Positions 10,217 through 63,766 of a DNA stretch of 64,000 nucleotides are shown one piece after another. The translations under genes were made by a program, and so were the position numbers. Location: sequence record PQ863255.1. One strand, 5' to 3'. Numbering within the stretch: position 1 is the stretch's first letter; the number at the start of each line of letters is the position of its first letter. Under the pieces are notes generated by a model. The model saw nothing but the letters and a program-made list of their open reading frames with translations. It was not told the DNA's origin and ran no database searches. Source of the DNA: Escherichia phage Ptacy1532.

Positions 10217-10225
10217 ATAATGTAT
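10217..10225 (+). promoter_or_regulatory. TAATGTATA motif about 40 nt upstream of the 1473-aa virion gene (candidate phage promoter element)
   Basis: CTATAATGTATATAGGGGG; same 9-mer recurs upstream of two minus-strand genes (20013-20023, 26428-26438). Confidence 0.35.
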
Positions 10226-10264
10226 ATAGGGGGTAGGACATTTTTATTTATAAAAGGAGACGTT

Positions 10265-13200
10265 ATGGCTAACATTAAACCGTGGGAAGAAGCTTCCAAA
10301 GCTCCTGCGTATCTGAATGCCTCTCCGGAGCAACAAGCTCAAATGAGAGAACAATATAAGGCAGCAGGTGGCTCTATTCCTGAGGAACAACCAGTAGCAC
10401 AACCACAACAAGAAGAACGTGGTGCTATAGGTGAGTTTGCTCAAGGTGTGTCAAATGCTCTTCAATCTGGTGGTGCAAATATTGCAGCTAGTGCTGCTAA
10501 AGGTATTGGTGGTTTAGTTGAGATTGGTGAGAATCTAGCTGGAACACAAACTAGTTATGGTAAGCGTATCCAAGAGAACTCTCAGAACCTTCTGAAAGAA
10601 CGTATGGATAAGATTGAGGATGGGGTTGGTAAAACTGTTGGTCAGTATGCTGGCGTTGCTGGTGATATTGGTATGACTGTTGCTAATCCATTGGCTGCTG
10701 CTGCTATCATCGCAGGTCGTGAGACAGGTCGTGCGTATGCAGACCAAACACCTGAAGAGGGAGAAGATAAATCTATTCTAGATGCGGCCTTAGTTGGTGG
10801 TGCTAACTATGCGGCTCAGAGAATCCTTCCGGGTGCTGTTGGTACAGCTGAGTCCACACTTGGACGTATCGGTCAGAACGTTGCTAGTAACGCAGTGGCT
10901 GGTGCTAAAGGTGGCGCTCTTGTAGGTGCTGCTGAAGCTCAGAACAAGCATGGAGATGATACAACCTTTGCTAATGTATTAGAGGGTGCTATCGAAGAAG
11001 GTGCTATGGGTGCTGCATTTGGTGGTGCAGTTGGTGGGGTTCATGGTTTGATTAGCCGTCCAGACTCTGCTGTCTTCAAGAATACTCCAGAGTATGCGAA
11101 GACTGATATTGCTGCTGATGACGAACTAATTCGCAGTGCTAAGAATATTGATGAATTGAAAGAAGCCTACTCTAAAGCTGAAACTGCTAACGCTGCTTCT
11201 GCTCTGAATCTTCTGGATGAGAATGGATTCCGTATTACAGATGCTGTTGCTGTAGATTCTCCTGCTGCTCAGCGTATTCTCAATACTGACCAAGCTCGCG
11301 CTGAGAAAGCTGCTTCCATTCAGAAAGAACATTCCAACATTCCGGGCCTTAACCCTTTAGCTTCTCCTGCTAAGACTCGTGGTAAAGCATTCGCTGATAA
11401 CGAGCACAACCAGAAGCAGGCTGTTGCTATGAAGGATGCAATGGCTGATTACACCAAAGACAACACGAAAGCTCTTACAGATGTTCTAGATAATCTAGAC
11501 CGTGAATTAACATCTCTCCGAGCTTCTGGTGATTTTACTGGTAGTCCGATTGATATTAAGAATCGTACACAAGCCGACCGTGACTTCATTGATGCTTACA
11601 AGACTTTCTACAACGAAGCAAATCGATTCAAAGCTCGTGATGGTGAAGACTTTAATAACTTTGTAGAGAAAGCTGCTGAACTACAGAAGATGGCTGATAA
11701 TGTTTCTCCAGAGATGAAGAAAGCTATTGGTGGGTTGAAGAAACTGAAAGGTATGCCTGAAGGTTTTAATCCTATCCAAGATGCTTACACTCTGAACAAT
11801 ACAGCTAAGTTCATGAGCAATCAAGATCGTGGTTGGACTTCCCTGACTGATGATGGATTCCGTGAGGCTTCTTCACCTAGTCTGGTAATGAATACTCTCG
11901 GTGCTGCTAAGTATGCTCTGAATCGCTTCTCTTCTCAGCGTGCTCGCTCTCAACGCGTTAAACAACAAGAGTCTAACAGTGAAGCTATCCGCTCTCTGGC
12001 TCGTGGTGATTTGGAAGTTGCTCGTGCTAAGTCTACTGCTGACGAAGCTCGTGCTAAGATGGAAGAAGAACCAGTTGTTGATGACATTAAATTTAAGACG
12101 CAAAATGACGTAGAAACCGAACCGGTTCGGGAGCCTTCTTCTAGTACTGTGACGGAAGAAAATCTTCCTTCTTCTACTCCTCAAGAAACCCCTCTTACAG
12201 CTCGTGATTTAGTTGCGCAAAGACGCGCTATCCGTCAGGCTGAACAGCGTCGCGCTGAAGAAGAGGCATTGGCTGCTCAAGAAGCTCCGGTCGAACAAGC
12301 TCCACAGGCTGAACCTCTCCCTGCTCGTAACCCTTTAGAGGAACGTCGTGCAATGGAACAGCAACGTGCTCAAGAAGAGGCCGCACAGGCTCCAGAACCC
12401 ACCGTAGAGGAACCAATAGTCAAAGCTGAGCCATTACCTGCCCGTGCTCCTAAAGCTCCTAAGGAGGCTGTACAGGACGTTAAACCGGCAAGTGGTGTAG
12501 AACGTTTAGCTGCTATGTCTAGTGCTGCTCGTCAGGCTACCAAAGATCGTGCAGAACGTTTTGCTCGTTCTCTGTACTCCAAGGCTGCTAAGGCTAAAGC
12601 TACTGCTGAAAACTTCTTGGCTTATAAAGGTGATCCTAAGGAATTGATGCGTCGTATTCGTCAGGAAGATAATGCTATCAACACTGAACGTCATGAAGAA
12701 ATGGCTCGTAACCAGCTGGCTTCTCAGCAAGGTATTGCTACTGCTAAGAACAACACTGTACGAACTAATTTTGCTGAATGGGTTAAAGAGCGTGGTCTGC
12801 CAGAAGACATTGCTACTAAGGCATTACGTGCTGAAGAGAAAGGTTTAGGTGGGAACGTAACTAACTTGGATAGTCTGAAACGTCGTGCTGAAAGGTTGTA
12901 TCAGAAGCAGCGTGAGGATGAGTTTGATAGACTGTACCAACAAGCTCTAGAAGAGAATAAAGCTTTCGATAACAAGAATGCTCCTAAGCTGGCTGACCAG
13001 AAGAAAGAGCTTCAGTCTGAGATTGATGCTTTGATTGATTCAGAACCTTTACGTCCTGCTCAGAAAGATGCTATGCGTAAGCTGATGAATGATTTTGTAG
13101 ATGGGAAGTTTAAATCTTCAGAGAAGGCTGGTAGGGAAGAGGCTTTGGAAGTTGGTCAGATGAAGGATATTTGGGATGGGTTTATTAATACCTATAACAG

Positions 13201-14686
13201 AGAGGTGAATGCCTTCAACAAAGCTAACAAGAACTCTCAGTACGAAGCTGCTGCTAAGCATTTACAGGCTCGTGAAGAACGTCTTGCTACACTCAGGAAA
13301 AAGGCTCAGGCTCGTTCGGATGCTAAAGCTGCTGTTGAGAATGAACGTAAAACTCTAGAGGCTATTGCAGCTCAGAAGAGTGAGATTGAGAAGATGATGG
13401 AGGGTTTACCTAAACCTGTTCGTGAGGCTCAGGAATCTCGTACACTGAAACAGTTGGCTGCTCACCACGATAAGAACTCTCCAGTTCCTCCAGAGAAGTT
13501 CCGTAGTTATATTGAACGTATTCACAACGCCGAGTCAGATTACCTTGATCGTCAGCGTCGTTTAACTGATGCAGAGGAAGATGCTCGTCAGGCTAAGTGG
13601 AATAAGATGTATGAGCAAGCGGAAGAGATGAACCGTAAGTTTGATGTGGACAAGAGAGTTAAGCGCAGTGAAGAGCTTAAAGCGGCCCAAGAACGTGAGA
13701 ATGACCTTATGGCAGTACAACGTCAACGTGATGACATTCATCGCCGCCTGATGCGTACTATGGAAGATAAGGGCATATCTAGAGAGGATGCTGAAGCGTT
13801 TGCTGGTTCCTACATGGATAACCGTTATGCACTTCTCGAGAAGCCTATGACTCCAACTGAACATCAGAATGCTCGCTCTCGTATTGAAGCTGATGTTGAG
13901 AAGTTCGCTAAGAAGTACGAATCAATGACTCCTATCGAGAAAGAGATTGTTAAGGTTACTGGAGATACTGAAGGTAAGCTTGATAACTTGGATGCGGATA
14001 CTAGGAAGGCTATTGAGGAGGCTCAGAAGGTTGACTCTGATATTAAGAAACTGCAAGAGGAAGAGTTGGAGATGGAGAAGATTCGTTCTGCTCTGCCTGA
14101 CGATGAAAGATCTCAAGCAAATTCTGATATCTTGGAAAGCATTAAACAACAGGAAGAGGTCTTTGCTGATAAAGTAGAGAAAGCTTTCTTGAGTGGGAAA
14201 AGCTTGGATGAGTTGGTTAGTGTGGCTGAAGTTTTAGACAGGGTTCATGGTGCAGATAAGGCTGGTAACAACCGTCGCTTTGTACGTGCATTGCAGACTG
14301 CTGCTGAAAACAAGAAGAAGTATGGTGATAATCCGGTAGCTTGGTTTAGTGCTGATGATTACTCTGCCATTGCTAAACTTGGTGCTTCTTCCGCAGGTGG
14401 TAACAAATCTAGAGCACTGGAGAAGATCTTTGGTTCTACAGCTGAACAGGCTAAGAGTAAGTTGCTTGGTAGGGATGATGTAGCGAAGATGAGACGTGTG
14501 ATTGAAGAAAACCCTGATATCAAGATTCCTTCTTACAAGACAACGAATCGTACTGAGTACTTGCAGTTCTTGGAGAAGTTTAATGACGAAGGGAAGCCGA
14601 AGATTAAACGTGGCTCATTGTCAGAGAAGCTTGAACGCAGTAAGCGTCAATCGAGACTCCGTGTAAGAGTTCGACCTAAGGAGTGA
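10265..14686 (+). CDS. large internal virion protein (1473 aa; Ala/Glu/Gln-rich, coiled-coil, tape-measure/ejection-protein-like)
   Basis: Track ORF 10220..14686 trimmed to the ATG with AAAAGGAGA RBS; very long low-complexity helical protein with internal AEPLPAR repeats. Confidence 0.6.
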   Translation: MANIKPWEEASKAPAYLNASPEQQAQMREQYKAAGGSIPEEQPVAQPQQEERGAIGEFAQGVSNALQSGGANIAASAAKGIGGLVEIGENLAGTQTSYGKRIQENSQNLLKERMDKIEDGVGKTVGQYAGVAGDIGMTVANPLAAAAIIAGRETGRAYADQTPEEGEDKSILDAALVGGANYAAQRILPGAVGTAESTLGRIGQNVASNAVAGAKGGALVGAAEAQNKHGDDTTFANVLEGAIEEGAMGAAFGGAVGGVHGLISRPDSAVFKNTPEYAKTDIAADDELIRSAKNIDELKEAYSKAETANAASALNLLDENGFRITDAVAVDSPAAQRILNTDQARAEKAASIQKEHSNIPGLNPLASPAKTRGKAFADNEHNQKQAVAMKDAMADYTKDNTKALTDVLDNLDRELTSLRASGDFTGSPIDIKNRTQADRDFIDAYKTFYNEANRFKARDGEDFNNFVEKAAELQKMADNVSPEMKKAIGGLKKLKGMPEGFNPIQDAYTLNNTAKFMSNQDRGWTSLTDDGFREASSPSLVMNTLGAAKYALNRFSSQRARSQRVKQQESNSEAIRSLARGDLEVARAKSTADEARAKMEEEPVVDDIKFKTQNDVETEPVREPSSSTVTEENLPSSTPQETPLTARDLVAQRRAIRQAEQRRAEEEALAAQEAPVEQAPQAEPLPARNPLEERRAMEQQRAQEEAAQAPEPTVEEPIVKAEPLPARAPKAPKEAVQDVKPASGVERLAAMSSAARQATKDRAERFARSLYSKAAKAKATAENFLAYKGDPKELMRRIRQEDNAINTERHEEMARNQLASQQGIATAKNNTVRTNFAEWVKERGLPEDIATKALRAEEKGLGGNVTNLDSLKRRAERLYQKQREDEFDRLYQQALEENKAFDNKNAPKLADQKKELQSEIDALIDSEPLRPAQKDAMRKLMNDFVDGKFKSSEKAGREEALEVGQMKDIWDGFINTYNREVNAFNKANKNSQYEAAAKHLQAREERLATLRKKAQARSDAKAAVENERKTLEAIAAQKSEIEKMMEGLPKPVREAQESRTLKQLAAHHDKNSPVPPEKFRSYIERIHNAESDYLDRQRRLTDAEEDARQAKWNKMYEQAEEMNRKFDVDKRVKRSEELKAAQERENDLMAVQRQRDDIHRRLMRTMEDKGISREDAEAFAGSYMDNRYALLEKPMTPTEHQNARSRIEADVEKFAKKYESMTPIEKEIVKVTGDTEGKLDNLDADTRKAIEEAQKVDSDIKKLQEEELEMEKIRSALPDDERSQANSDILESIKQQEEVFADKVEKAFLSGKSLDELVSVAEVLDRVHGADKAGNNRRFVRALQTAAENKKKYGDNPVAWFSADDYSAIAKLGASSAGGNKSRALEKIFGSTAEQAKSKLLGRDDVAKMRRVIEENPDIKIPSYKTTNRTEYLQFLEKFNDEGKPKIKRGSLSEKLERSKRQSRLRVRVRPKE

Positions 14687-15278: not shown

Positions 15279-15672
15279 TTCCTTTTTTGAATTGTTTTCT
15301 TGCATCATTTTCCATCTTAGTTTTAATCTTGTGACAAGGGTCTTTACACAGAACCTGAAAACCTTCTTTCTCACATAGAGCACGAGAGATGATTTCATCC
15401 CAAGTTGCTTCATGGTCAAGAGGAACTATAGGCTCTATGTGGTCAATAGCCATATCCTTTACAGGGTGGTCAGAACCACATATGGCACACTTAAAGTGCA
15501 TTGCCAGTCTACCTGTCTTTGGATTAATCTTTTGCTCTGTCTTGGCGTCTGCTAGTGCATCGAACATGGGCTTCCACTTTCTAGTCAGAGAACGAATCCC
15601 TGACTTGATGAAAGAATTATAACGAGCTTCAGTCCACATTCCACTACAGCGAGTCTTCTCAGACTTCGCCAT
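15271..15672 (-). CDS. HNH endonuclease
   Basis: CxxC...IDHIEPI...LC..CHKIK arrangement (zinc-binding HNH motif). Confidence 0.6.
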   Translation of the reverse strand: MAKSEKTRCSGMWTEARYNSFIKSGIRSLTRKWKPMFDALADAKTEQKINPKTGRLAMHFKCAICGSDHPVKDMAIDHIEPIVPLDHEATWDEIISRALCEKEGFQVLCKDPCHKIKTKMENDARKQFKKGNE

Positions 15673-15838
15673 AATCAGCTTCTTCCCAAACTCGTTTGTT
15701 TACACGATGGCTCACTTTACCCTCACGAGGAATACGACCAGTTCTCTGATCAAACAGTTGATGCTTGATCTTTTGATCTTTACGAGATTCACGATTGGAG
15801 GAGTTTTCATCATATGAACGATAATCAAATTTACCCAT
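15659..15838 (-). CDS. small basic hypothetical protein (59 aa)
   Basis: ATG with AAGGAT RBS 13 nt after the exonuclease stop; ends overlapping the HNH start. Confidence 0.3.
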   Translation of the reverse strand: MGKFDYRSYDENSSNRESRKDQKIKHQLFDQRTGRIPREGKVSHRVNKRVWEEADYGEV

Positions 15839-15851
15839 TATAATATCCTTA

Positions 15852-16670
15852 TTACCAAGATTTATCTAACCATGTCCAGTCGAACAGGTCTTCCGGAGTC
15901 TGACCAACAAAGAGCAGACGAGCATTCTCAAGCATCTTCTCTTCATCTTCAGTATCGAACTTCTTATAATATTCCATTCGTACTATATGATACATGGTCC
16001 ACTTATCTGTAACACCAGCTAGTAATTTAGCTGCTGCCTTCTTCCCTATGCCTTGACGTCGAAGCTGAAGCTTACCGCCCCACATAACCTCTTTACGTTC
16101 CCCACATCCGGGGATATTATCCGTACCGTCTCCAATCAACATTTGATAGAAGAAATTTTGCCATGAAACTAAATCGGATACGTAGTGAGGGGGAACCTCT
16201 TTTTGCCTTTCTCCACAAGCCCAACGATAATGCCATCCGGGAGTTATCAACAAATCTTTGTCTCTAGTACAGATGATAGTGTTCTTATCCCTACGTTGCC
16301 TTTCAGCTAGTGCATCATCAGCCTCTCTCCCAAATACATCTATGTATTCATATTTACCTTTAATATAATCACCAACGTTTTGCCAGTGAAAAGGTCTTTC
16401 TCCGGGAGGTCTATTTGCTTTGTAGTCTTGCTGCTTAGCAACATCGAAACGGAAGTTACCACCTTCGCTGAAGTAGAACACGATCTTGCTACAACCCGAT
16501 CGAGCTATGATTGTATCAATCTTATACTGAAGTCGTTCAATCATGAAATTGTAATCAACTGGAACACGTCCTGTGTCAAGGAAGGGATGCTCCTGAGTAA
16601 GAGCACCCACTTCATATCGAAGAACGTCAGCATCCACTATAGCTACTTCAGGGAGCTTAACGTCTTCCAT
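15852..16670 (-). CDS. 5'-3' exonuclease / flap endonuclease (T7 gp6-like)
   Basis: Motifs YKANR, ICTRDKDLLITP and IGDGTDNIPG align with T7 gene 6 exonuclease / FEN-family signatures. Confidence 0.75.
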   Translation of the reverse strand: MEDVKLPEVAIVDADVLRYEVGALTQEHPFLDTGRVPVDYNFMIERLQYKIDTIIARSGCSKIVFYFSEGGNFRFDVAKQQDYKANRPPGERPFHWQNVGDYIKGKYEYIDVFGREADDALAERQRRDKNTIICTRDKDLLITPGWHYRWACGERQKEVPPHYVSDLVSWQNFFYQMLIGDGTDNIPGCGERKEVMWGGKLQLRRQGIGKKAAAKLLAGVTDKWTMYHIVRMEYYKKFDTEDEEKMLENARLLFVGQTPEDLFDWTWLDKSW

Positions 16671-20012: not shown

Positions 20013-20023
20013 AGTATACATTA
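20013..20023 (-). promoter_or_regulatory. TAATGTATACT motif about 58 nt upstream of gene 19209..19955 (candidate phage promoter element)
   Basis: Minus strand reads GCGTAATGTATACTATACAT; same core as 26428-26438 and 10217-10225. Confidence 0.35.
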
Positions 20024-20086: not shown

Positions 20087-20095
20087 TAATGTATA
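20087..20095 (+). promoter_or_regulatory. TAATGTATA motif in plus orientation inside the 415-nt intergenic region (no plus-strand gene nearby)
   Basis: CTAGTAATGTATATATTG; orientation opposite to the flanking genes. Confidence 0.25.
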
Positions 20096-26078: not shown

Positions 26079-26393
26079 TTATGAGCTTAAAGCTCCTTTG
26101 CGTGCTCCAGCTGCTTTTCCAGCTCGATCACCACTTTTGCCGCCGTTTGAACGGTTTGAGCTGACTGATTCAACACGTAAATTGCTTGACGCATTAGAAC
26201 CTCCAGACTTGACAGCTCGTTTGTGTCCAACATCTTTACCTCTGACAGCAGCTTTTCCATCGCGCTTTTCAACGATGCGACGTGCACGGTGGCGCTGAGC
26301 ATCTCCGCTCTTGCTCCCAACGCCTGTCTCACCACGGGCAATTGCGGTACGTCTTTCTTGTGCATAATCTCTCTTTCCTACATGGTCTGCCAT
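26079..26393 (-). CDS. highly basic Gly/Lys/Arg-rich protein
   Basis: Strong AAGGAG RBS 7 nt from ATG; chosen over the overlapping frame 26087..26365. Confidence 0.5.
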   Translation of the reverse strand: MADHVGKRDYAQERRTAIARGETGVGSKSGDAQRHRARRIVEKRDGKAAVRGKDVGHKRAVKSGGSNASSNLRVESVSSNRSNGGKSGDRAGKAAGARKGALSS

Positions 26394-26427: not shown

Positions 26428-26438
26428 AGTATACATTA
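26428..26438 (-). promoter_or_regulatory. TAATGTATACT motif about 35 nt upstream of gene 26079..26393 (candidate phage promoter element)
   Basis: Minus strand reads CTATAATGTATACTCCTTAG. Confidence 0.35.
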
Positions 26439-27933: not shown

Positions 27934-28136
27934 AAGGCATCAACCTCTCTCAGATACCACCATTTAAACTCAACACCTTTACGACCACCACCATTCATAA
28001 CCCAACGCATCATCTCATCAGGTATTCCAAAAGGTTTAAGTTTCGCATAGTTAGGTTTTTCTAAGAACACAGCTTCAAAATACTCACCATCTTGATCATA
28101 CTGGTTGATTGCTCTTGTTAGTACCCATACTTTCAT
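27930..28136 (-). CDS. hypothetical protein
   Basis: Track ORF 27930..28247 trimmed to an internal ATG to limit overlap with 28096..28452. Confidence 0.35.
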   Translation of the reverse strand: MKVWVLTRAINQYDQDGEYFEAVFLEKPNYAKLKPFGIPDEMMRWVMNGGGRKGVEFKWWYLREVDAL

Positions 28137-46959: not shown

Positions 46960-47112
46960 TTACTCCTGTTGTTTACACTCGTCAATAACCCACTGATAAG
47001 TGGATTGCCCAGAAAAGAAACACTGAATAAATCCAGATGTTCTCTGCGTTACCAGTGCTAGTGCACAAATCACTACCGCTGCTGCTAGCAGTTTTAAATC
47101 TAATTTAGACAT
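46960..47112 (-). CDS. small membrane/secreted protein (about 50 aa)
   Basis: Track ORF trimmed to the ATG with GAGAGGAAA RBS; hydrophobic LLAAAVVICALALV. Confidence 0.3.
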   Translation of the reverse strand: MSKLDLKLLAAAVVICALALVTQRTSGFIQCFFSGQSTYQWVIDECKQQE

Positions 47113-47224
47113 ATTTCCTCTCATTGAATTTAAAAAAGGACTCTCCGAAAAGAGCCAAGCTTTAAATCCAAAAAAGATATTACCCAATATCTGTGGATAA
47201 CCTGCTCTTAAAATATCTATCCGA

Positions 47225-47345
47225 CGGATGTTCGAGGATTGTTCCTCTCCCTAGCATCGGCCCCATACGGGAAATATATTAAGATTAGGTTAGTTGAGTC
47301 AGAATAACTCACATAGCCCTCCGAAGAAGGCTATAGGCGTTACTA
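47225..47345 (-). promoter_or_regulatory. conserved intergenic element, copy A (hairpin TATAGCC..GGGCTATGTGAG, then GCTAGGGAGAG and CTCGAACATCCG boxes)
   Basis: About 120 nt sharing ordered blocks with 54055-54178; starts right at the stop of the upstream gene. Confidence 0.35.
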
Positions 47346-47348
47346 CAA

Positions 47349-47564
47349 CTAAAAATCACTTGATTTTACAAAATCATCACTAAGGATTTCGTCAATCTCT
47401 TTGCTAGTCAAATCTTTCCTGAACCAGCAACAAGGAACATCCACCCATTGACCAGAGTTGTTTTCTACAGAGCATCTATTGCCTGTCTTACTCTTGCACT
47501 TATAGGTTTTCCCTTTGTCTAGACGATAGTGTATTCTGTAAACGATCGACACAAGTGCTATCAT
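47349..47564 (-). CDS. hypothetical protein
   Basis: 71-aa ORF. Confidence 0.4.
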   Translation of the reverse strand: MIALVSIVYRIHYRLDKGKTYKCKSKTGNRCSVENNSGQWVDVPCCWFRKDLTSKEIDEILSDDFVKSSDF

Positions 47565-48028
47565 TACTCTATCCTAACTGAAGGGCAGTATTTCTCTTTC
47601 TTGCTGCGATACATCACAACAATCCAGTTTGAATCACGACGCTCTTTCTTACGTCGTTTCTTTTCAGCACGAGTTTCATATGTGCTAGTTCGGTGGTCAC
47701 GGTATATTCCACGAAGTTCATGAAATGCCCAACTACCACCAAACACTACACCAGCCAAAGCAGCCAAAGGTAAGGCACCAAGAGCAGGGGCAGTGAACCA
47801 TGTCCACCAATTGAATGACAAAAAATTCTCATGTCCAAGGAGAGAGCCACCAATCATGGATAGTGCAGCGTATACAATCCCTAACAGCAGCGTCAGTGCA
47901 ATGAAGTGCATCACTGTACGCCAGAAGTATTCGCAAAAGTTAGTCATATTATCCCAATGAGGGTTGGGTAAACCTGACATGGTTTTGTTTAACTTATGCA
48001 ACCATCCGTTCTTGTTAATCTTGATCAT
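47564..48028 (-). CDS. integral membrane protein (2-3 TM helices, basic C-terminal tail)
   Basis: Hydrophobic segments HFIALTLLLGIVYAALSMIGG and FTAPALGALPLAALAGVVFGG. Confidence 0.45.
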   Translation of the reverse strand: MIKINKNGWLHKLNKTMSGLPNPHWDNMTNFCEYFWRTVMHFIALTLLLGIVYAALSMIGGSLLGHENFLSFNWWTWFTAPALGALPLAALAGVVFGGSWAFHELRGIYRDHRTSTYETRAEKKRRKKERRDSNWIVVMYRSKKEKYCPSVRIE

Positions 48029-48261
48029 TACTCACCTTTCTTGGCACGATCTTTGGCAGTTTTACCAGTGCGGATGCGATGGGAAACGTTAACCAGAGTA
48101 CCACCATCAACTACGGTAACGCTCTTGTTTTTAGCCAGATCAAACACAGTCTTCTCTGTGCCACCCAAGCGAATTTGCTTAGGCTCACTGAAGGTTTGGG
48201 TTGATTTAGATTGGAACTGGAACGGTTGACGGATTGCATCGATTGCGCTTACTTTAGACAT
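48028..48261 (-). CDS. hypothetical protein
   Basis: 77-aa ORF directly downstream of conserved element C. Confidence 0.4.
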   Translation of the reverse strand: MSKVSAIDAIRQPFQFQSKSTQTFSEPKQIRLGGTEKTVFDLAKNKSVTVVDGGTLVNVSHRIRTGKTAKDRAKKGE

Positions 48262-48495
48262 AGGGGAAATTCCTTAAAAAGTTATGGCTGCGTAGAGGGA
48301 ATTCCCTACGCAAATTGGGACGCCCACAGAGAGGCGTCATAGTACTAAAAGGAGGAGAGAAGAGGGATTATTTAGCTACCTTTTTCTGTCCATTTACGAA
48401 CCAGATAATTGAACCGTCAGGCTGTCGTTGACCGAAGCCTTTTTGGTTAATCATATCGTCATAAGAATATGCTTTACGTCTCATTTGTTTTCCTA

Positions 48496-48708
48496 TTAAC
48501 AGGCGTAGTTACGTAGGTATACATGCCGATCTCTCAGCACCTCACCAAGAAAAGATTTGTAATCTTCTGTTATGCCAGAATAAAACTTCTCTTTAGCTTC
48601 TTCTTCGGACACTTTCCACAACTTAGAAAGTTGGTTGAACAAGATTTCCTCTGAGGAAAACAGTAGATAGGCATTCTGTATGAGTATGTCTTTCTCTTCT
48701 TGAGTCAT
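48496..48708 (-). CDS. hypothetical protein
   Basis: 70-aa ORF. Confidence 0.4.
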   Translation of the reverse strand: MTQEEKDILIQNAYLLFSSEEILFNQLSKLWKVSEEEAKEKFYSGITEDYKSFLGEVLRDRHVYLRNYAC

Positions 48709-48717
48709 AGACCACCC

Positions 48718-48963
48718 TTACATTAGAGTTAAGATGATCTCTGCTTTGGCAAACTTCTCACCAACTTCAAGAGTGTCAGAAACAGGACGAGGTTCGCCTG
48801 TGCCTAAATTAACTGCTCTGCGATATCCACCAGATAGAGGCATCATCAAATAAATGACCTGACTGTCATCATCTTTTAAAGTAAAGATGTCAGCGATCGC
48901 TAGATCTTTAACAAAGAGTTTCTTTTCTTCTTCATGATGAACTTTGATATGTATTGTGCTCAT
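48718..48963 (-). CDS. small protein of the tandem ~80-aa paralog family
   Basis: Shares the family pattern (N-terminal MK/basic, L..L..G..F, central Y, C-terminal NL.TG) with nine neighbours. Confidence 0.5.
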   Translation of the reverse strand: MSTIHIKVHHEEEKKLFVKDLAIADIFTLKDDDSQVIYLMMPLSGGYRRAVNLGTGEPRPVSDTLEVGEKFAKAEIILTLM

Positions 48964-48965
48964 GC

Positions 48966-49217
48966 CTACTCCTGAACCACTGACATACGAATCATTTCTA
49001 CCTGATCATCAAGACCTTTAACAGATAATACACCTGTGGAAAGGTTTATCACAGGAACCCAGCCACTGGCTATGCGAATGTTACCAGAAGCATTTTCAAC
49101 CCTCATGTAATACTGAGGAGAAGCACTTCCGTTCTGAACTACGAAGGGGTTTCCGGGAATGATTGTTTCCAATCGTACCGTATTATCCTTTTTCTTAGGG
49201 ATGATTTTCATTAGCAA
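48966..49217 (-). CDS. small protein of the tandem ~80-aa paralog family
   Basis: Family pattern; INLSTGVLS motif. Confidence 0.5.
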   Translation of the reverse strand: MLMKIIPKKKDNTVRLETIIPGNPFVVQNGSASPQYYMRVENASGNIRIASGWVPVINLSTGVLSVKGLDDQVEMIRMSVVQE

Positions 49218-49459
49218 TCACTCACTAAAAGTTCTGCCGACACAGGAATAACTTGGCACCAGCTAGACGGTGCTGTTACGTTACCATCAGATAGACGGAG
49301 AGAGAGTACTCGATCAGAGTTAACGGTTACATTAGGACTTTCAGATACAGTCCCTTTGACATAGAGAGTAGCACTCTCGGGGAATTTAAACACTGCTCCG
49401 CTGGGAAGGGTGTTGAGATCAACCTTGGTCACTTCTTCTTTCTTGTGAGTAATCTTCAT
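49211..49459 (-). CDS. small protein of the tandem ~80-aa paralog family
   Basis: Family pattern; LNTLPSGAVF. Confidence 0.5.
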   Translation of the reverse strand: MKITHKKEEVTKVDLNTLPSGAVFKFPESATLYVKGTVSESPNVTVNSDRVLSLRLSDGNVTAPSSWCQVIPVSAELLVSDC

Positions 49460-49710
49460 TTAGAATCCTTAATAACGTTAGCTTCAACCTTAACAGGAAT
49501 AACAGAGATGCCCTCAACGGGGCCACTTAAGTGTCCATCTTCCAGTCTGACACACACGACTCGATCTCGTGCAACTTCTACCCAATTAGTAGATGCCGCA
49601 GTACAGACCATATGAATTGGACCGTTCTCTTCCAGCCGGAAGGTATCGCCCTTCTTCAGAGTGTGGAGTTTCACAGTCTTGATAGTTTTGTTCAATTCGT
49701 TAACTTTCAT
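49456..49710 (-). CDS. small protein of the tandem ~80-aa paralog family
   Basis: Family pattern; LHTLKKGDTF. Confidence 0.5.
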   Translation of the reverse strand: MKVNELNKTIKTVKLHTLKKGDTFRLEENGPIHMVCTAASTNWVEVARDRVVCVRLEDGHLSGPVEGISVIPVKVEANVIKDSK

Positions 49711-49718
49711 ATTGATTC

Positions 49719-50030
49719 CTATTTAAGTTTCAGGCTAATATTAAGGTGCATACATGCCCTGTTCTGTACAGCAGCATAGCTTCTACCGAGCATGTCAGCC
49801 ATTCTCTGAATAGGCATGAACCCAGCATTACGGATAAGGAACTGATCTTCTTCTTCAGACCACTTAACTCGGATTGAAGCTCTTGATATTCCGAACTTAG
49901 TGCAAGCTGTGTTAACAGCATTCTCCGTTACATTCATAATCTGAGCAACTTCTTTAACCGAGTACTCTTTGATTAATCTCCGAAGATTTTCAATCTGCAT
50001 CGGAGTCCATATAGTTCTTCGCGCTTTCAT
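49719..50030 (-). CDS. DNA-binding protein with two helix-turn-helix-like segments
   Basis: SVKEVAQIMNVTENAVNTAC and IQRMADMLGRSYAAVQNRA resemble tandem HTH units. Confidence 0.45.
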   Translation of the reverse strand: MKARRTIWTPMQIENLRRLIKEYSVKEVAQIMNVTENAVNTACTKFGISRASIRVKWSEEEDQFLIRNAGFMPIQRMADMLGRSYAAVQNRACMHLNISLKLK

Positions 50031-51764: not shown

Positions 51765-51839
51765 TGGCGTTCCCTCGTGGAATCGAACCACGAATAAGAG
51801 CTTAGAAGGCTCCAGTTATATCCGTTTAACTAAGGGAAC
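51765..51839 (-). tRNA. tRNA-Arg (anticodon UCU)
   Basis: Cloverleaf folded by hand: acceptor GTTCCCT/AGGGAAC, D-stem GTTA/TAAC, anticodon stem GGAGC/GCTCT with loop CTTCTAA, T-arm CGTGG-TTCGATT-CCACG, encoded CCA. Confidence 0.8.
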
Positions 51840-55819: not shown

Positions 55820-56209
55820 TTATTCCCTAGAGCTATTATCGAACACTAAATCACCACAATACATAGGATTGGCATACCATTTTGGCACCCCTTCGCTCTT
55901 ACTCTGAAAGTAAGTCCCACTATACAGCGGAACATAATTCTTCTTAAGGGCACGTTTAGCCAGCCGCTCGCTTTCTCCAATGGCTTGCTTAGTCATCGGA
56001 TTTTTATCACGAATCAGCTTTACATAACGTTTATAAGGTTTCTCCTGTTTTAATAGTACCGGAATCCACTCAAACTGGTTCTTTTGTCTTATCACCTGTT
56101 CAGCGGTCAGTTTTCGTTGAGCCATTCTATTTATTACGGTATCCGCAACTAAAGCCTTACATGCGGTTGGCTGATTCCCTGCCTCATAATAAATAGTCAA
56201 TGTCAACAT
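55820..56209 (-). CDS. cell-wall hydrolase (SleB / Hydrolase_2-like); endolysin candidate
   Basis: YYEAGNQP..CKALVADTVINRM ... QKNQFEW ... YCGDLVF follows the SleB-type consensus. Confidence 0.55.
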   Translation of the reverse strand: MLTLTIYYEAGNQPTACKALVADTVINRMAQRKLTAEQVIRQKNQFEWIPVLLKQEKPYKRYVKLIRDKNPMTKQAIGESERLAKRALKKNYVPLYSGTYFQSKSEGVPKWYANPMYCGDLVFDNSSRE

Positions 56210-56256: not shown

Positions 56257-56284
56257 ATAAAAAAGCCCCAGCCGTAGCCGGGGC
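56257..56284 (-). terminator. Rho-independent terminator (second of a tandem pair)
   Basis: GCCCCGGC-TACG-GCTGGGGC hairpin followed by TTTTTT on the minus strand. Confidence 0.4.
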
Positions 56285-56342
56285 AAACCTGAAAGCAACA
56301 CATGACCGTTGCTATAAATACACTCGCAAATGCACTTACAGC

Positions 56343-56369
56343 AACGCAAAAAGCCGCCCAAAGGCGGCT
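56343..56369 (-). terminator. Rho-independent terminator (first of a tandem pair)
   Basis: AGCCGCC-TTTG-GGCGGCT hairpin followed by TTTTTGCG on the minus strand. Confidence 0.45.
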
Positions 56370-56423
56370 ATGCGGAAGCTTCAAATGGGGAGAGTACGAC
56401 GCGACAGAAAGAGCGTCATAGTA

Positions 56424-56606
56424 CTAAAAGAGGGGGGTAGTATTCCATAGAGATCTTCTCTCTCTTTCCCTATTTTCAGCCTCTAATTCTTTCTTTAGTA
56501 ATTCGTTTTCTTCTTGCAAGGATGCTACCAGATGAACCAGAACATCAACTACTGCATCACCTTGCCGCATCTCTCTGACTTTATTTAGAATCTCTGAATA
56601 AATCAT
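56424..56606 (-). CDS. hypothetical protein (charged, helical)
   Basis: 60-aa ORF. Confidence 0.4.
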   Translation of the reverse strand: MIYSEILNKVREMRQGDAVVDVLVHLVASLQEENELLKKELEAENRERERRSLWNTTPLF

Positions 56607-58781: not shown

Positions 58782-60751
58782 CTTTCAATTGTAAGGGCGC
58801 TATTGCCCCGCTCTCTATGAGCTTGTTTAAGTCACTATTAACTTAACTATAACCACTCGTTGTTAAGTAGTTATAGGTAAGCGGGGCGGTCTTATCAGGA
58901 GTTAACCTTGCCGCCCCCTTATCCGTGATGTTTCATCTGGTATCTTTAATTAGTCGCTATAAACGAAGCCGACCTGATAGCGATGATCAATCATCACAAT
59001 AAGGCTATGCGTCCGACTCTATTTAATTACATTACTGTAACCGTCGGCAATATCGTCCACTTTGTTTTCGCTCCCGCTTATCCTTTTATATCAGCTCTCT
59101 ATCGCTAGTCATCGCCCACTACGGGATACTATTGCGAAAGAGTCACTAACCGCCTATTATTCCGGCGTTTTATATCTTTCAGCAGGTTTACTACATAACC
59201 CGACTATGTACTTTCATCTTATAATGAATCTCAAGCCGTTCACATCGTAAACGTTCGCATTAAACCTTATTGTTAAATAGCAATTTGCCACTTTTTAACC
59301 ACTCACCGCCGCTCTCAATTGAGCGTTATTTCTTCGGGCTTGCCTACCCTGATTAACTTCTTTCACCGTAGCACCTTGTTAGCGATGACCGCCGCTACCC
59401 TTAACCGTGGGCGATTAGCTTAAGTCTTTGCGTATACTCGATGAATCCGTTTATCAGTGGTGACGTTTCCATCAAGGGATTGTAAGGCTGTTTTCTCTGA
59501 TAGTTTAGAGAGTCTTACATCGTTTTGTCTGGTATGTTATCCGATGGTTATTATCATCTAACATATTCAACCGATATAGGAGAATGTTTAAATTATTAAA
59601 GAGCGGTAAATCTATCAGTGTGCTTTCTCACACTATGCAACTGTTAGCCGTTGTTACGCTTTCCTTAAGCGGTGATTTGCTTAAGTGATGCTCATTATGA
59701 ATCATGTTGTTTTCGCTGTCAACCGCTTTTTAATCTTTTTCGTCGTTCCCGCTATTGGGAGGATATATCAATCAGCTTTATTTGATTGAAGATTAAGCGG
59801 TGATGCTTAACTTATGATTCATATTGTTAAAGAGCGTTAGCCTTTTAGAGTGTCTGCTAATCACTGTCACATTTAAGGCTTACTTATTCATTAACGGGCC
59901 GCCTACACCCGAACTACTCGCTGCACTATGTGCCACCTTTCCCGCGATACGTTGATTTGGGAACTAGTTAGCGATGTTTTGCTAACTTGTGGTTAGTATG
60001 GACTACTTTAACCACGTTTGCAAGCTCTTTTTATCATCTTCTTTTAATTCCTCTCCCTTATCTCGCGTGAATCTATGCGAAAGGGCAAGATGATAAGTCT
60101 GATTTGTCTTTTAGGAATCTAGCGCGCTTTCAAGCATTAATCTTTTGAAAGTATCGAACAAATAAGGCTTATTGATATTGCTTATTGTCCGCCTGCGTCA
60201 CGTATGAATCAGGAATCAATTCTACCGATTAACTGAGCGCCTTATAGTAATGACGTCGCCGCCACCCGTAAGACAAATCATATTTTTAAAGAGCGGGATT
60301 TTTCAAGTCATCGCTGACTATGCTCACTATATATCAGGCTTTTTCGGTGTCAATACTCTTTTCAAGTATTTTCACTTTCTAGCCTGATTTTTAAAGAGCG
60401 TAGCACTTTCATGTGCGTCCTGCTTTCGGTATTCCTACCGCTCCCCGTTGAAGCCTTTTACCGTGATGCTAATCACCTATCGAGGAGTTTTTTACTACTT
60501 GTTACTTACTGCTTACTACGGGATTCATATTACTATACAGGAAAACCCTGTCAATACCCTTTTTTCAAATTATTTTATATCTTACTGTTTTATAAAGGAA
60601 TTTATTTTAGGGAGGATAGGAACTACAAAGAAATCAGGGGGGATAGAGGAACGGGCGCGCGTGATACATCATAAGAAACGGCTTGTAAAGCAATAATAAG
60701 CGGCCTAGAACGCACTACAGCAAGCGAAAAGGGAGTAAGGCATACAATCAC
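58782..60751. repeat. ORF-poor region (~2 kb) with dispersed short direct repeats
   Basis: No ORF of 60 aa or more on the minus strand; ATATTnTTAAAGAGCG at about 59596, 59827, 60286, 60391; TAAGCGGTGAT(T)TGCTTAA at about 59666 and 59794. Confidence 0.5.
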
Positions 60752-63003: not shown

Positions 63004-63031
63004 CTATATAATAAAGGAAAAAGCTGTCAAC
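63004..63031 (-). promoter_or_regulatory. sigma70-like early promoter for the minus-strand block
   Basis: Minus strand reads TTGACA-16 nt-TATAGT about 45 nt upstream of the 62957 start codon. Confidence 0.4.
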
Positions 63032-63766
63032 CATTTATTTTCTAACTTTATTGCATCTTACTGAAAACTAAAGGAATTTAATTTACTAAACTTCCCCTAC
63101 TCAGAGAATCAGCTTACTGACTATTGTTACTTTATAACACTAATCCTACGGGTAGCAGACCAACATACCAGGACAAACGGGGATACAACAACCGCAGAAC
63201 AGACCACGGGGAAACATAGCCAGATAGTGCGGTAGTAATATACCACTTAAATAATTAGTTAACTATTAATGTAAACTCAAACATCAAAGACGTTCGTACT
63301 TCGTACTCACAAAGGCACGCTGAAAAAGAAAAGAATAAAAGAAATAATAAACATCAAACATAATCTTTCCACTTAATTAATACATACATCATTATTGCAC
63401 TCATAATCATTGCTATTGAAACTATTTACACTCAAACTATGGGGGATGTGGGCTATTACTTATGGGTATTATTAGACCTGTTATTATCACGCCTTTACTA
63501 GTTTATACAGTGCTGGCCTTTCTCTCACTCTTTAAAGGGGAACTAAATAAACGGGTAGCTAATGAATAGGATGGTATACACGGGGAAATAATTACGGGGA
63601 GTAGGCACGGGGAAAGGTGGAACATGTAAAGGGAAGGTAAAGGCATTGCCAATAACCCTTTTTTAAATGAGGACTCCCCCTTTTTAGGAAACGCGCGGGA
63701 AGCGGCTAGCCCCACTCGGTCAAATCAGAATTTTAAACTCTTATATATAAGGTTGAAAGAGAACTT

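What the first reader, a model, noticed from the sequence alone, without database searches (positions are those of the whole stretch)
48300..48365. Second conserved intergenic motif pair (GCGTCATAGTACTAAAAG + hairpin) 8 kb apart
The sequence GACGC-loop-GCGTCATAGTACTAAAAG(G)AGG occurs at about 48321-48360 and again at about 56400-56440. In both places a GACGC/GCGTC hairpin with a different loop accompanies a near-identical 18-nt box. On the transcribed strand the box reads CCTCTTTTAGTACTATGACGC. One copy lies upstream of gene 48028..48261 next to a second palindrome (GCGTAGAGGGAATTCCCTACGC); the other precedes the tandem terminators upstream of the SleB-like hydrolase gene.
Basis: seen in the sequence. 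Interest (0 to 1): 0.5.

Follow-up and report, generated by a model that had tools for sequence, protein, structure and literature searches.

The report
Predicted DNA nick sites in a kuravirus
The repeated box is real and carries the exact sequence at which related Pseudomonas phages hold a permanent single-strand nick in their packaged DNA, so this E. coli phage (phiEco32 group) very probably has the same poorly understood nicking system, and a small conserved HNH-type nuclease gene in the same window is a candidate for the enzyme.

Summary
An exact 18-mer lies at 48334-48351 and at 56413-56430, each next to a GACGC(C)/GCGTC hairpin. No dinucleotide shuffle gave as many matches.

The window is a Kuravirus (phiEco32 group). 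On the sense (minus) strand the box reads TTTTA-GTACTATGACG-C. Its core matches 5'-(G)TACT/RTGAC-3', the consensus of the physically mapped single-strand nicks of phages tf, LUZ24-like phages and Rembedalsseter.

- A third copy, GTACTGTGACG, lies at 12144-12154 (+) inside a late virion gene. The 11-mer occurs 3 times against 0.01 expected.
- Suseptimavirus SU7 has exactly three sites at the same three positions, although the flanks have diverged.
- Phages 7-11, Privateer and TacPo2 carry 13, 5 and 6 copies, nearly all on one strand.
- Aeromonas phage LAh_9 carries a variant, TACGGTGAC, five times on one strand.
- All these phages share a syntenic gene core with LUZ24 and tf.

The motif does not match the sigma70 promoter, the gp36 promoter, an intrinsic terminator, boxA or any Rfam family.

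Best explanation (about 0.65): these are recognition sites of a phage nicking endonuclease. No physical nick has been shown in any kuravirus.

The candidate nickase is a 104-aa HNH-like protein (26079-26393, minus strand; phi32_58 family). It sits directly behind a gp36 middle promoter and is the most conserved protein across these lineages.

The adjacent hairpin is specific to Gordonclarkvirinae and remains unexplained.

The parts
48335..48345 (-). Site A core, GTACTATGACG. The 9-mer TACTATGAC spans 48344 down to 48336. The predicted nick is in the minus strand between 48341 (T) and 48340 (A).
   Evidence: It is identical to the LUZ24-type nick consensus GTACTATGAC and to tf TACT/RTGMC. It is conserved in all sampled kuraviruses and in SU7.
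48319..48338 (-). Hairpin A. On the sense strand it reads GACGCC-TCTCTGTG-GGCGTC, and its 5' arm starts at the GAC of the core.
   Evidence: MFE -11.2 kcal/mol. The core stem CGCC/GGCG is kept in other kuraviruses and in SU7, while the loop varies.
48346..48359 (-). Pyrimidine tract 5' of the core (sense strand CTCTCCTCCTTTTA). It is shared with site B of Kuravirus and with site A of SU7. SU7 site B and site C lack it.
   Evidence: Its role is unknown. In the RNA fold it can pair with the Shine-Dalgarno sequence of gene 48028-48261.
48290..48311 (-). Second palindrome GCGTAGAGGGAATTCCCTACGC, between site A and gene 48028-48261 (phi32_93 homologue).
   Evidence: It is conserved in kuraviruses. 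It is not followed directly by a T run, so it does not look like a canonical terminator.
56414..56424 (-). Site B core, GTACTATGACG. The 9-mer TACTATGAC spans 56423 down to 56415. The predicted nick is in the minus strand between 56420 and 56419. The TAG just 5' of TACT is the stop codon of ORF 56424-56606.
   Evidence: phiEco32 has TACTGTGAC here, so the only variation falls at the R position of the consensus.
56398..56417 (-). Hairpin B. On the sense strand it reads GACGC-TCTTTCTGTC-GCGTC.
   Evidence: SU7 has GACGCTC-TTCTT-GAGCGTC at the homologous place, and TH38 keeps the stem with a G.T wobble.
56265..56369 (-). Two intrinsic-terminator-like hairpins (56369-56352 and 56284-56265) directly downstream of site B. 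They close the first early transcription unit.
   Evidence: They are annotated as terminators in WFI101126 and Paul. SU7 keeps the arrangement of motif, hairpin and terminator.
12144..12154 (+). Site C core, GTACTGTGACG, inside the 1488-aa late virion gene 10220-14686 (phi32_26 homologue). The predicted nick is in the plus strand between 12148 and 12149.
   Evidence: It is conserved in phiEco32, ECBP2, Bas88 and SU7, and lost in DE5.
12154..12168 (+). Hairpin GGAAG-AAAAT-CTTCC directly after site C.
   Evidence: MFE -8.8 for the 32 nt starting at TGAC. SU7 has GGAAG-aaattc-CTTCC.
26079..26393 (-). Candidate nickase: a 104-aa HNH-like (HNN variant) protein of the phi32_58 family.
   Evidence: - It is 55-61% identical across Kuravirus, 7-11, LUZ24 and tf, the highest of all shared proteins.
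- It carries the signature DH..K.GG.N...NL.......N.
- Pfam HNH matches weakly in 3 of 5 members, best E 0.071.
- Some sources name homologues as HNH.
- The AlphaFold2 model has pLDDT 73 and a beta-beta-alpha element.
26430..26438 (-). Exact gp36-dependent promoter element TAATGTATA, 37 nt upstream of the start codon of the candidate nickase gene (published promoter P58).
   Evidence: The consensus and the gene list (6, 13, 26, 40, 58, 68) come from PMC4331800 and PMC8948821. The same element is found in phiEco32 at 42945-42937.

Best explanation
The conserved box is a recognition and cleavage site for a phage-encoded, site-specific DNA nicking system. It is the same system that leaves localized single-strand interruptions at 5'-(G)TACT/RTGAC-3' in the virion DNA of Pseudomonas phages tf, LUZ24-like phages and Rembedalsseter.

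Proposed mechanism:
1. A phage nuclease binds the duplex motif. The candidate is the small HNH protein encoded at 26079-26393 (minus strand), transcribed from the gp36 middle promoter.
2. In mid to late infection it cuts only the motif-bearing strand, between T4 and R5. This leaves a ligatable 3'-OH/5'-P nick that is packaged.
3. After injection the host ligase reseals it.

In this phage the expected nicks are:
- in the minus strand at 48341/48340 and at 56420/56419;
- in the plus strand at 12148/12149.

Shown here: the identity of the sequence with the mapped nick consensus, its statistical excess, its conservation at syntenic positions in two genera, and its lineage-wide, strand-biased enrichment.

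Inferred: that the DNA is actually nicked in kuraviruses, the timing, and the enzyme.

The hairpin that starts at the GAC of every site in Kuravirus and Suseptimavirus is an additional lineage-specific feature. It may restrict cleavage to three sites, or it may have a separate role at the RNA level. This is speculation.
For: 1. Sequence identity. The tf nicks were mapped by primer extension and by ligase repair at TACT/RTGMC (PMC3517423). P. aeruginosa LUZ24-like phages show read ends at GTACTATGAC and GTACTGTGAC (PMC3634792, PMC4482731). Rembedalsseter has 13 nicks seen by nanopore sequencing at WACTRTGAC (PMC11780129). The window has GTACTATGACG twice and GTACTGTGACG once (3 found against 0.01 expected, 0 of 100 shuffles).

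2. The only variation inside the box among kuraviruses is A/G at the R position.

3. The whole genomes of WFI101126 and SU7, and 72.6 of 77.5 kb of phiEco32, each hold exactly three sites at the same three homologous places, while the flanks have diverged. The base before TACT is G in all three Kuravirus sites and C in all three SU7 sites.

4. Related lineages are strongly enriched, and almost all of their sites lie on one strand:
- 7-11: 12 TACTRTGAC against 1.6 expected, or 13 when one TACTGTGCC is counted; 12 of those 13 lie on one strand.
- Privateer: 5 of 5 on one strand, against 0.79 expected.
- TacPo2: 6 of 6, against 1.05 expected.
- LAh_9: the variant TACGGTGAC, 5 of 5, against 0.11 expected.

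5. Kuravirus shares a syntenic core with LUZ24 and tf: large terminase (TerL), portal, major capsid protein, 5'-3' exonuclease, DNA polymerase, primase/helicase and the amidoligase cluster.

6. A conserved HNH-like protein is present in all these lineages.
Against: - No physical evidence exists for a nick in any kuravirus, and no paper in the searchable library links the two.
- There are only three sites, and the bare 9-mer is not significantly enriched in the window (3 found against 1.8 expected; 26 of 100 shuffles reach 3).
- Sites lie on both strands, two on the minus strand and one on the plus strand. In the characterised phages (LUZ24, tf, Rembedalsseter) all sites are on one strand.
- Sites A and B share extra conserved flanks (a pyrimidine tract and a hairpin) that are not part of the known nick sites. 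The hairpin is absent from the LUZ24, tf and LAh_9 sites. An additional or different function is therefore possible.
- Site C is lost in one record, DE5, which is marked UNVERIFIED.
- No residue change in the LAh_9 protein accounts for its variant motif.
Confidence: 0.65

Rival explanations
1. The box is a transcription signal: a single-element promoter for an unidentified holoenzyme or activator. TACTAT would act as a -10-like element, and transcripts would start in GACGC and carry a protective 5' hairpin. At site B this would give a short RNA of about 55-70 nt ending at the first terminator.
For: - The box is intergenic at sites A and B, and at all three sites it lies on the sense strand.
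- TACTAT has the A2 and T6 of a -10 hexamer (direct reading).
- The hairpin is followed by a single-stranded stretch and a terminator at site B, which resembles small-RNA architecture.
- gp36 promoters are also single elements.
Against: - There is no match to tAATGTAtA.
- No sigma70-like -35/-10 is predicted at either site.
- Rfam gave nothing.
- In SU7 the sequence upstream of the core at site B is unrelated.
- The same core occurs 5-13 times, mostly inside ORFs, in 7-11, Privateer and TacPo2, and 9-14 times in LUZ24 and tf. In the late regions of LUZ24 and tf it lies antisense to the genes.
- The 7-11 study mapped promoters with a different consensus.
Confidence: 0.08
2. The element works in the early mRNA. 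The hairpin plus the flanking U-rich or pyrimidine-rich stretch would be an RNase processing or stability site, or a translational coupling device, with the CUCCU tract pairing with the Shine-Dalgarno sequence of the next gene.
For: - The hairpins fold better than shuffled sequence.
- The stem is kept in SU7 with a different sequence, and with a G.U-compatible change in TH38 that works only on the sense strand.
- At site A, CUCCU can pair with the AAGGA of gene 48028-48261.
Against: - This does not explain why the invariant part is the 11-nt core rather than the stem.
- It does not explain why the same core recurs inside a late gene on the other strand and throughout related genomes without hairpins.
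- Site B has no downstream gene before the terminators.
- Hairpin A has an A.G mismatch in most kuraviruses.
- This could still be a secondary role for the hairpin.
Confidence: 0.1
3. The core is a DNA signal read by another conserved core protein without stable nicking. Possibilities are a fixed priming site for the primase/helicase (with RTGAC as the primer start), a packaging or ejection pause signal, or an operator for a regulator.
For: - The motif co-occurs with the whole shared core, not only with the HNH-like gene.
- The nucleotide 3' of the mapped break is always a purine, as expected for an initiating nucleotide (inference).
- In Kuravirus, TAGTACTA is an 8-bp palindrome (direct reading).
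Against: - In tf the breaks are ligatable 3'-OH/5'-P nicks present in more than 90% of virions.
- The palindrome is not kept in SU7, 7-11, Privateer or TacPo2, which have ACTACT, so a dimeric operator is unlikely.
- No tool here can test priming.
Confidence: 0.12
4. The two copies are a neutral leftover of a duplication or recombination event and have no function.
For: - Sites A and B share flanks beyond the core.
- Segmental duplication does occur here: EcoN5 has two copies of the site A block.
Against: - The core is invariant across about 96 records and in a second genus, while neighbouring intergenic sequence diverges.
- The third copy is in coding DNA.
- Enrichment is lineage-wide.
Confidence: 0.02

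Closest known systems
Localized single-strand interruptions of Pseudomonas phages tf (Krylovvirus), LUZ24-like phages (Bruynoghevirus) and Rembedalsseter/UFV-P2 (Vicosavirus); consensus 5'-TACT/RTGMC-3', GTACTRTGAC or WACTRTGAC
   Same: - The core sequence is identical, including the flanking G on each side and the A/G degeneracy.
- The phages share a syntenic core genome.
- Sites cluster in the early region.
   Different: - Kuraviruses have only 3 sites instead of 9-15.
- Their sites lie on both strands.
- Every site abuts a hairpin.
- Two of the three sites are intergenic and carry extra conserved flanks.
- No nick has been shown physically.
Nick sites of phiKMV-like phages (5'-CGACNNNNNCCTA/CTCCGG-3') and of T5/BF23
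   Same: Few, strand-specific, sequence-defined nicks in virion DNA. They are resealed after infection and reintroduced late. The function and the enzyme are unknown (as described in PMC3517423).
   Different: The consensus sequences are unrelated and the phage lineages are unrelated.
Small stand-alone HNH nicking endonucleases (Gme HNH 4h9d, phage GVE2 HNH 5h0o, I-HmuI 1u3e)
   Same: The candidate protein at 26079-26393 (minus strand) has about the same size as Gme HNH and GVE2 HNH (about 100 aa). It has a beta-beta-alpha-metal topology and an H...N...N signature. These three are among its five best structural matches.
   Different: - Sequence similarity is marginal (Pfam HNH E 0.07; no PDB sequence hit).
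- There are no zinc-binding cysteines.
- It has a unique, highly basic, invariant N-terminal half.
- Its activity is untested.
phiEco32 gp36-dependent middle/late promoters (tAATGTAtA)
   Same: A short single conserved element on the sense strand of a kuravirus.
   Different: The sequence is different. The gp36 element is found at its published places (for example 26430-26438 and 10218-10226) and not at sites A, B or C.

Membership tests
LUZ24/tf-type localized nick site | Sequence matches 5'-TACTRTGMC-3' (extended form GTACTRTGAC) | tested here: met
   three sites, all GTACTRTGACG. Compared with the consensus quoted and with the annotated tf nick sites (sci) and the LUZ24 motif occurrences.
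LUZ24/tf-type localized nick site | Physical single-strand break with 3'-OH/5'-P after TACT in virion DNA | not testable with these tools
   This needs native DNA (nanopore sequencing, alkaline gel with and without ligase, primer extension). No report was found.
LUZ24/tf-type localized nick site | Motif over-represented relative to chance | tested here: met
   The 11-mer occurs 3 times against 0.01 expected. The 9-mer alone is only 3 against 1.8. Relatives are strongly enriched: 7-11 has 12 against 1.6, Privateer 5 against 0.79, TacPo2 6 against 1.05.
LUZ24/tf-type localized nick site | All sites on one DNA strand | tested here: not met
   Kuravirus and SU7 have two sites on the minus strand and one on the plus strand. 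The feature is met or nearly met in 7-11 (12 of 13), Privateer (5 of 5), TacPo2 (6 of 6) and LAh_9 (5 of 5). With n = 3 this lowers but does not exclude membership.
LUZ24/tf-type localized nick site | The phage belongs to the lineage that carries the system (shared core genes) | tested here: met
   large terminase 37-39% identical, primase/helicase 45-47%, DNA polymerase, 5'-3' exonuclease and a syntenic amidoligase cluster.
gp36-dependent kuravirus promoter | Consensus tAATGTAtA 6-8 nt upstream of the transcription start | tested here: not met
   One search finds no match with up to 1 mismatch at 48.3 kb, 56.4 kb or 12.1 kb.
sigma70 promoter | -35 and -10 hexamers with a 16-18 bp spacer | tested here: not met
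   predicts no site at either box. The strong early promoters lie at 59.7-63.0 kb.
Intrinsic terminator | GC-rich hairpin followed directly by a T run | tested here: not met
   Hairpins A and B are followed by CCAATTTG and GTACTCTCC. The true terminator-like sites are separate.
Lambda-type nut site (boxA) | boxA CGCTCTTTA conserved in all copies, followed by a boxB hairpin | tested here: not met
   Only site B reads CGCTCTTT. Site A reads CGCCTCTCT. The boxA consensus is from memory.
Known RNA family (Rfam) | Match at the gathering score | tested here: not met
   only a tRNA at 51768-51839. The hits near site B fall on the terminators and are far below threshold.
HNH (beta-beta-alpha-metal) nuclease, for the candidate enzyme at 26079-26393 | HNH/HNN catalytic motif on a beta-beta-alpha fold | tested here: inconclusive
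   - Invariant H57, N67, N71 and N80.
- Pfam HNH best E 0.071, below the cut-off.
- The model contains a beta-beta-alpha element.
- All 10 Foldseek hits are HNH nucleases, but with E above 1.

The most novel reading that the evidence does not exclude
The roughly 100-aa HNH-like protein of the phi32_58 family is the long-sought site-specific nickase of the nicked-genome phages. It is mis-annotated in LUZ24 and tf. In kuraviruses it would cut only three hairpin-flanked sites, one of them exactly at the end of the first early operon. phiEco32 in E. coli would then be a tractable model for finding out what programmed nicks are for.
Probability: 0.35. Interest if true: 0.75.

Novelty: new member of a known kind. 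Interest (0 to 1): 0.6.

Why it matters
Sequence-specific nicks in packaged phage DNA have been known for about 50 years in T5, and later in phiKMV-like and LUZ24-like phages. Neither the enzyme nor the function is established (PMC11780129, PMC3517423).

If kuraviruses carry the same system, four things follow:
- The system is much more widespread than reported. It would extend to Escherichia, Salmonella, Proteus, Pantoea and Aeromonas phages of Gordonclarkvirinae, Grimontviridae and Lahexavirus.
- It becomes testable in a genetically easy host, with only three sites to mutate.
- A concrete candidate enzyme is available.
- Nicked templates would matter for sequencing, assembly and engineering of kuraviruses used in therapy. 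They cause coverage artefacts and nanopore read breaks.

Tried and rejected
- **sigma70 promoter:** rejected, no site predicted at either box.
- **gp36 promoter:** rejected, the consensus is different.
- **Known RNA family:** nothing in Rfam.
- **boxA/nut antitermination site:** only site B resembles boxA, so this was dropped.
- **Dimeric operator on the palindrome TAGTACTA:** the palindrome is not kept in SU7, 7-11, Privateer or TacPo2.
- **Small ORF starting at the ATG inside the box:** the ORFs are 29 and 12 codons, have no Shine-Dalgarno sequence, and the peptides are not conserved (direct reading).
- **Exact-sequence literature search for the box:** only unrelated primers.
- **IMG/VR scan for the box:** it added only three kuravirus contigs plus an unrelated conserved gene.
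- **De novo k-mer enrichment:** too noisy because of codon repeats.
- **T7 endonuclease I-like gene as the shared nickase:** it is present in 7-11, LUZ24 and tf but was not detected in Kuravirus.
- **WFI gp028 HNH (phrog_3106) and the HNH_3 homing endonucleases:** they are not shared across the lineages.
- **A private substitution in the LAh_9 HNH-like protein to explain its variant motif:** none found.
- **PDB sequence search with the family profile:** no hit.
- **Primary phiEco32 papers:** Savalia 2008 and Pavlova 2012 are not held in the library, so their primer-extension data could not be checked.

Full report
**What the window is**

The region 47000-50000 is 99% identical to Escherichia phage vB_EcoP_WFI101126 and 90-95% identical to about 90 other Kuravirus records, including phiEco32.

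- Genes from about 15 kb to the right end lie on the minus strand. Late genes on the left lie on the plus strand.
- Strong sigma70-type early promoters lie at 59.7-63.0 kb on the minus strand. This agrees with the published picture that early genes are transcribed leftwards from the right end (PMC4281155; PMC8948821).

**The observation**

- The 18-mer GCGTCATAGTACTAAAAG occurs exactly at 48334-48351 and 56413-56430. With up to 3 mismatches allowed, the search gave 3 matches against 0.06 expected, and none of 100 shuffles reached 3.
- The hairpins are at 48319-48338 and 56398-56417. The second palindrome is at 48290-48311. Two terminator-like hairpins follow site B at 56369-56352 and 56284-56265.
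- On the sense (minus) strand the copies read CCTCCTTTTAGTACTATGACGCC-loop-GGCGTC and CCTCTTTTAGTACTATGACGC-loop-GCGTC.
- Site A lies between the homologues of phi32_94 and phi32_93. Site B follows the phi32_120 homologue and a 60-aa ORF whose TAG stop codon is part of the box.
- Both sites are found in most kuravirus records: 96 records for site A and 76 for site B.

**Readings that failed**

- The box is not the gp36 promoter tAATGTAtA. That element is found at its published places, for example upstream of genes 26 and 58.
- No sigma70-like site is predicted at either box.
- The hairpins are not followed by T runs.
- Rfam gives nothing beyond a tRNA.
- A resemblance to lambda boxA exists only at site B.
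- The 8-bp palindrome TAGTACTA is not kept in other genera.

**The key match**

The core of the box, (G)TACTATGAC(G), is the consensus of experimentally mapped single-strand interruptions in a related phage group.

- In P. putida phage tf, 14 nicks lie at 5'-TACT/RTGMC-3'. [quoted passage not shown]
- In P. aeruginosa LUZ24-like phages, read ends pile up at GTACTATGAC or GTACTGTGAC (PMC3634792; PMC4482731).
- In Rembedalsseter, 13 nanopore coverage drops coincide with WACTRTGAC, and 61 related phages are enriched for the motif (PMC11780129).

In the window:

- A search for TACTRTGMC returns three sites: the two boxes and TACTGTGAC at 12145-12153 (+). The third site lies inside the 1488-aa late gene 10220-14686.
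- All three sites read GTACTRTGACG. This 11-mer occurs 3 times against 0.01 expected, and 0 of 100 shuffles reach 3.
- The only variable position of the box among kuraviruses is A/G at the degenerate R position. phiEco32 site B reads TACTGTGAC.
- In LUZ24 and tf themselves the flanking bases are mostly G before and G after the 9-mer, as they are here.

**Comparative evidence**

- The complete WFI101126 genome has exactly these three sites. phiEco32 has the same three in the 72.6 kb examined: 27941-27949 (+), 63070-63062 (-) and 70592-70584 (-).
- SU7, from a different genus (Suseptimavirus), also has exactly three sites at the same three homologous places. The surrounding sequence has diverged there. 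Upstream of site B it is unrelated.
- The base before TACT is C in all three SU7 sites and G in all three Kuravirus sites. In the coding site this costs a Ser-to-Thr change. Such a concerted change is what co-evolution of a protein with its sites would produce.
- Counts in more distant relatives:

| Phage | Motif | Sites found | Strand distribution | Expected by chance |
|---|---|---|---|---|
| Salmonella phage 7-11 | WACTRTGMC | 13 (12 are TACTRTGAC) | 12 on one strand | 1.6 for TACTRTGAC |
| Proteus phage Privateer (50 kb) | TACTRTGAC | 5 | all on one strand | 0.79 |
| Pantoea phage TacPo2 (50 kb) | TACTRTGAC | 6 | all on one strand | 1.05 |
| Aeromonas phage LAh_9 (50 kb) | TACGGTGAC (variant) | 5, and no canonical copy | all on one strand | 0.11 |

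- Eleven of the 7-11 sites are followed by G, and the consensus there is ACTACTGTGACG.
- Kuravirus shares with LUZ24 and tf a syntenic core: large terminase, portal, scaffold, capsid and tail proteins, 5'-3' exonuclease, DNA polymerase and its exonuclease subunit, primase/helicase, and the amidoligase/GATase/ATP-grasp cluster. Inheritance of the nicking system from a common ancestor is therefore plausible.
- No paper in the searchable library connects kuraviruses, phiEco32 or 7-11 with nicks.

**The hairpin**

- In Kuravirus and SU7 all three sites, including the coding one, are followed by a hairpin whose 5' arm begins at or next to the GAC of the core. Mean MFE of the 32 nt from TGAC is -8.9 and -8.1 kcal/mol, against a background of -3.2 and -3.4.
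- Stem B is kept in SU7 with a longer, partly different stem, and in TH38 with a G.T wobble. Stem A keeps only CGCC/GGCG in most phages.
- The LUZ24, tf and LAh_9 sites show no such hairpin.
- The hairpin is therefore a feature of Gordonclarkvirinae and not part of the general nick site. Its role is open. It may restrict cleavage to few sites, form a cruciform or single-stranded DNA structure, or act at the RNA level.

**Candidate enzyme**

- Among the proteins shared by Kuravirus, SU7, 7-11, LUZ24 and tf, the most conserved is a protein of about 100 aa, 55-61% identical across all five (phi32_58; window 26079-26393, minus strand).
- In LUZ24 and tf the conserved ORF lies in a different frame from the annotated gp26 and tf_29.
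- The family has at least 1031 members, and some are named HNH by their sources. It is present in 246 phage records from exactly the lineages above.
- It has invariant H57, N67, N71-L72 and N80 in a DH..K.GG.N...NL.......N pattern, preceded by an invariant basic N-terminal half.
- Pfam HNH matches 3 of 5 members weakly, best E 0.071.
- An AlphaFold2 model (pLDDT 73) has a beta-beta-alpha element at the motif.
- All ten Foldseek hits in the PDB are HNH nucleases, but with E above 1.
- The gene sits 37 nt downstream of an exact TAATGTATA, the published gp36 promoter P58. This fits nicking in mid to late infection.
- The assignment is a hypothesis. The protein co-occurs with the whole shared core, and the LAh_9 protein shows no private change that would explain its variant motif.

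**Verdict**

- The most likely explanation (about 0.65) is that the box is a nick site of the tf/LUZ24 type.
- The strict one-strand rule of that family is not met, and no physical nick has been shown. The finding is therefore filed as a predicted new member of a known kind.
- Promoter, RNA-element and other DNA-signal readings remain possible at low probability. The hairpin and the pyrimidine tract shared by sites A and B are not explained.

Noticed in passing
L021 (LUZ24) 15622-15933 + and L022 (tf) 16129-16416 +: The ORF conserved at 55-61% with phi32_58 lies in a different frame from the annotated LUZ24 gp26 (15668-15937) and tf_29 (16115-16429). These are probably mis-annotations that hide an HNH-like gene.
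   Followed up: yes
L025+L026 (Salmonella phage 7-11), e.g. record 88039, 87012, 86028, 85070, 83748: 7-11 carries 13 copies of the nick consensus, 12 of them on the minus strand. Five are spaced about 1 kb apart at the right (early) end. No report of this was found in the papers searched.
   Followed up: partly
L038 (Aeromonas phage LAh_9) 1084, 4258, 9171, 11759, 21259 (+): LAh_9 has no TACTRTGAC but has five copies of TACGGTGAC, all on one strand (0.11 expected). This is an apparent co-evolved variant of the motif.
   Followed up: partly
window 56312-56325 (-): GAGTGTATTTATAG between the two terminators resembles the gp36 promoter TAATGTATA (6 of 9). It may be a weak middle/late promoter for the cell-wall hydrolase gene 55820-56209.
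   Followed up: no
window 26430-26438 (-) and 10218-10226 (+): Exact TAATGTATA elements lie at the places of the published gp36 promoters P58 and P26. A further exact pair lies at 20015-20023 (-) and 20087-20095 (+).
   Followed up: partly
L004 (EcoN5) 31431-31439 and 32949-32957 (-): EcoN5 has a tandem duplication of the phi32_89-93 block, which gives two identical copies of site A.
   Followed up: no
L028 (DE5) site C: The UNVERIFIED record DE5 reads TACTGTGATA at site C, so the motif is lost there, either truly or through sequence error.
   Followed up: no
window 60535-60609 and 63011-63085: A 75-nt direct repeat (72% identity) overlaps two of the strongest sigma70-like early promoters (TTGACA-16-TAATAT and TTGACA-16-TATAGT). 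These are probably duplicated early promoter modules.
   Followed up: no
window 48255-48375 (-): In the predicted RNA fold, the CUCCU tract 5' of site A pairs with the AAGGA Shine-Dalgarno sequence of gene 48028-48261.
   Followed up: no
L022 (tf) sci1, sci4, sci11: Three mapped tf nicks fall exactly at annotated start codons, so the RTG of TACT/RTGAC is the ATG or GTG of tf_04, tf_15 and tf_41. In the window the ATG inside the box opens only 29- and 12-codon ORFs without a Shine-Dalgarno sequence.
   Followed up: partly
L019 29544-29945 (-) (window about 15.2-15.6 kb): WFI gp028 is an HNH endonuclease by PHROGs (phrog_3106, E 6e-40) but has no Pfam HNH hit. Its SU7 counterpart is annotated as terminase small subunit.
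   Followed up: partly
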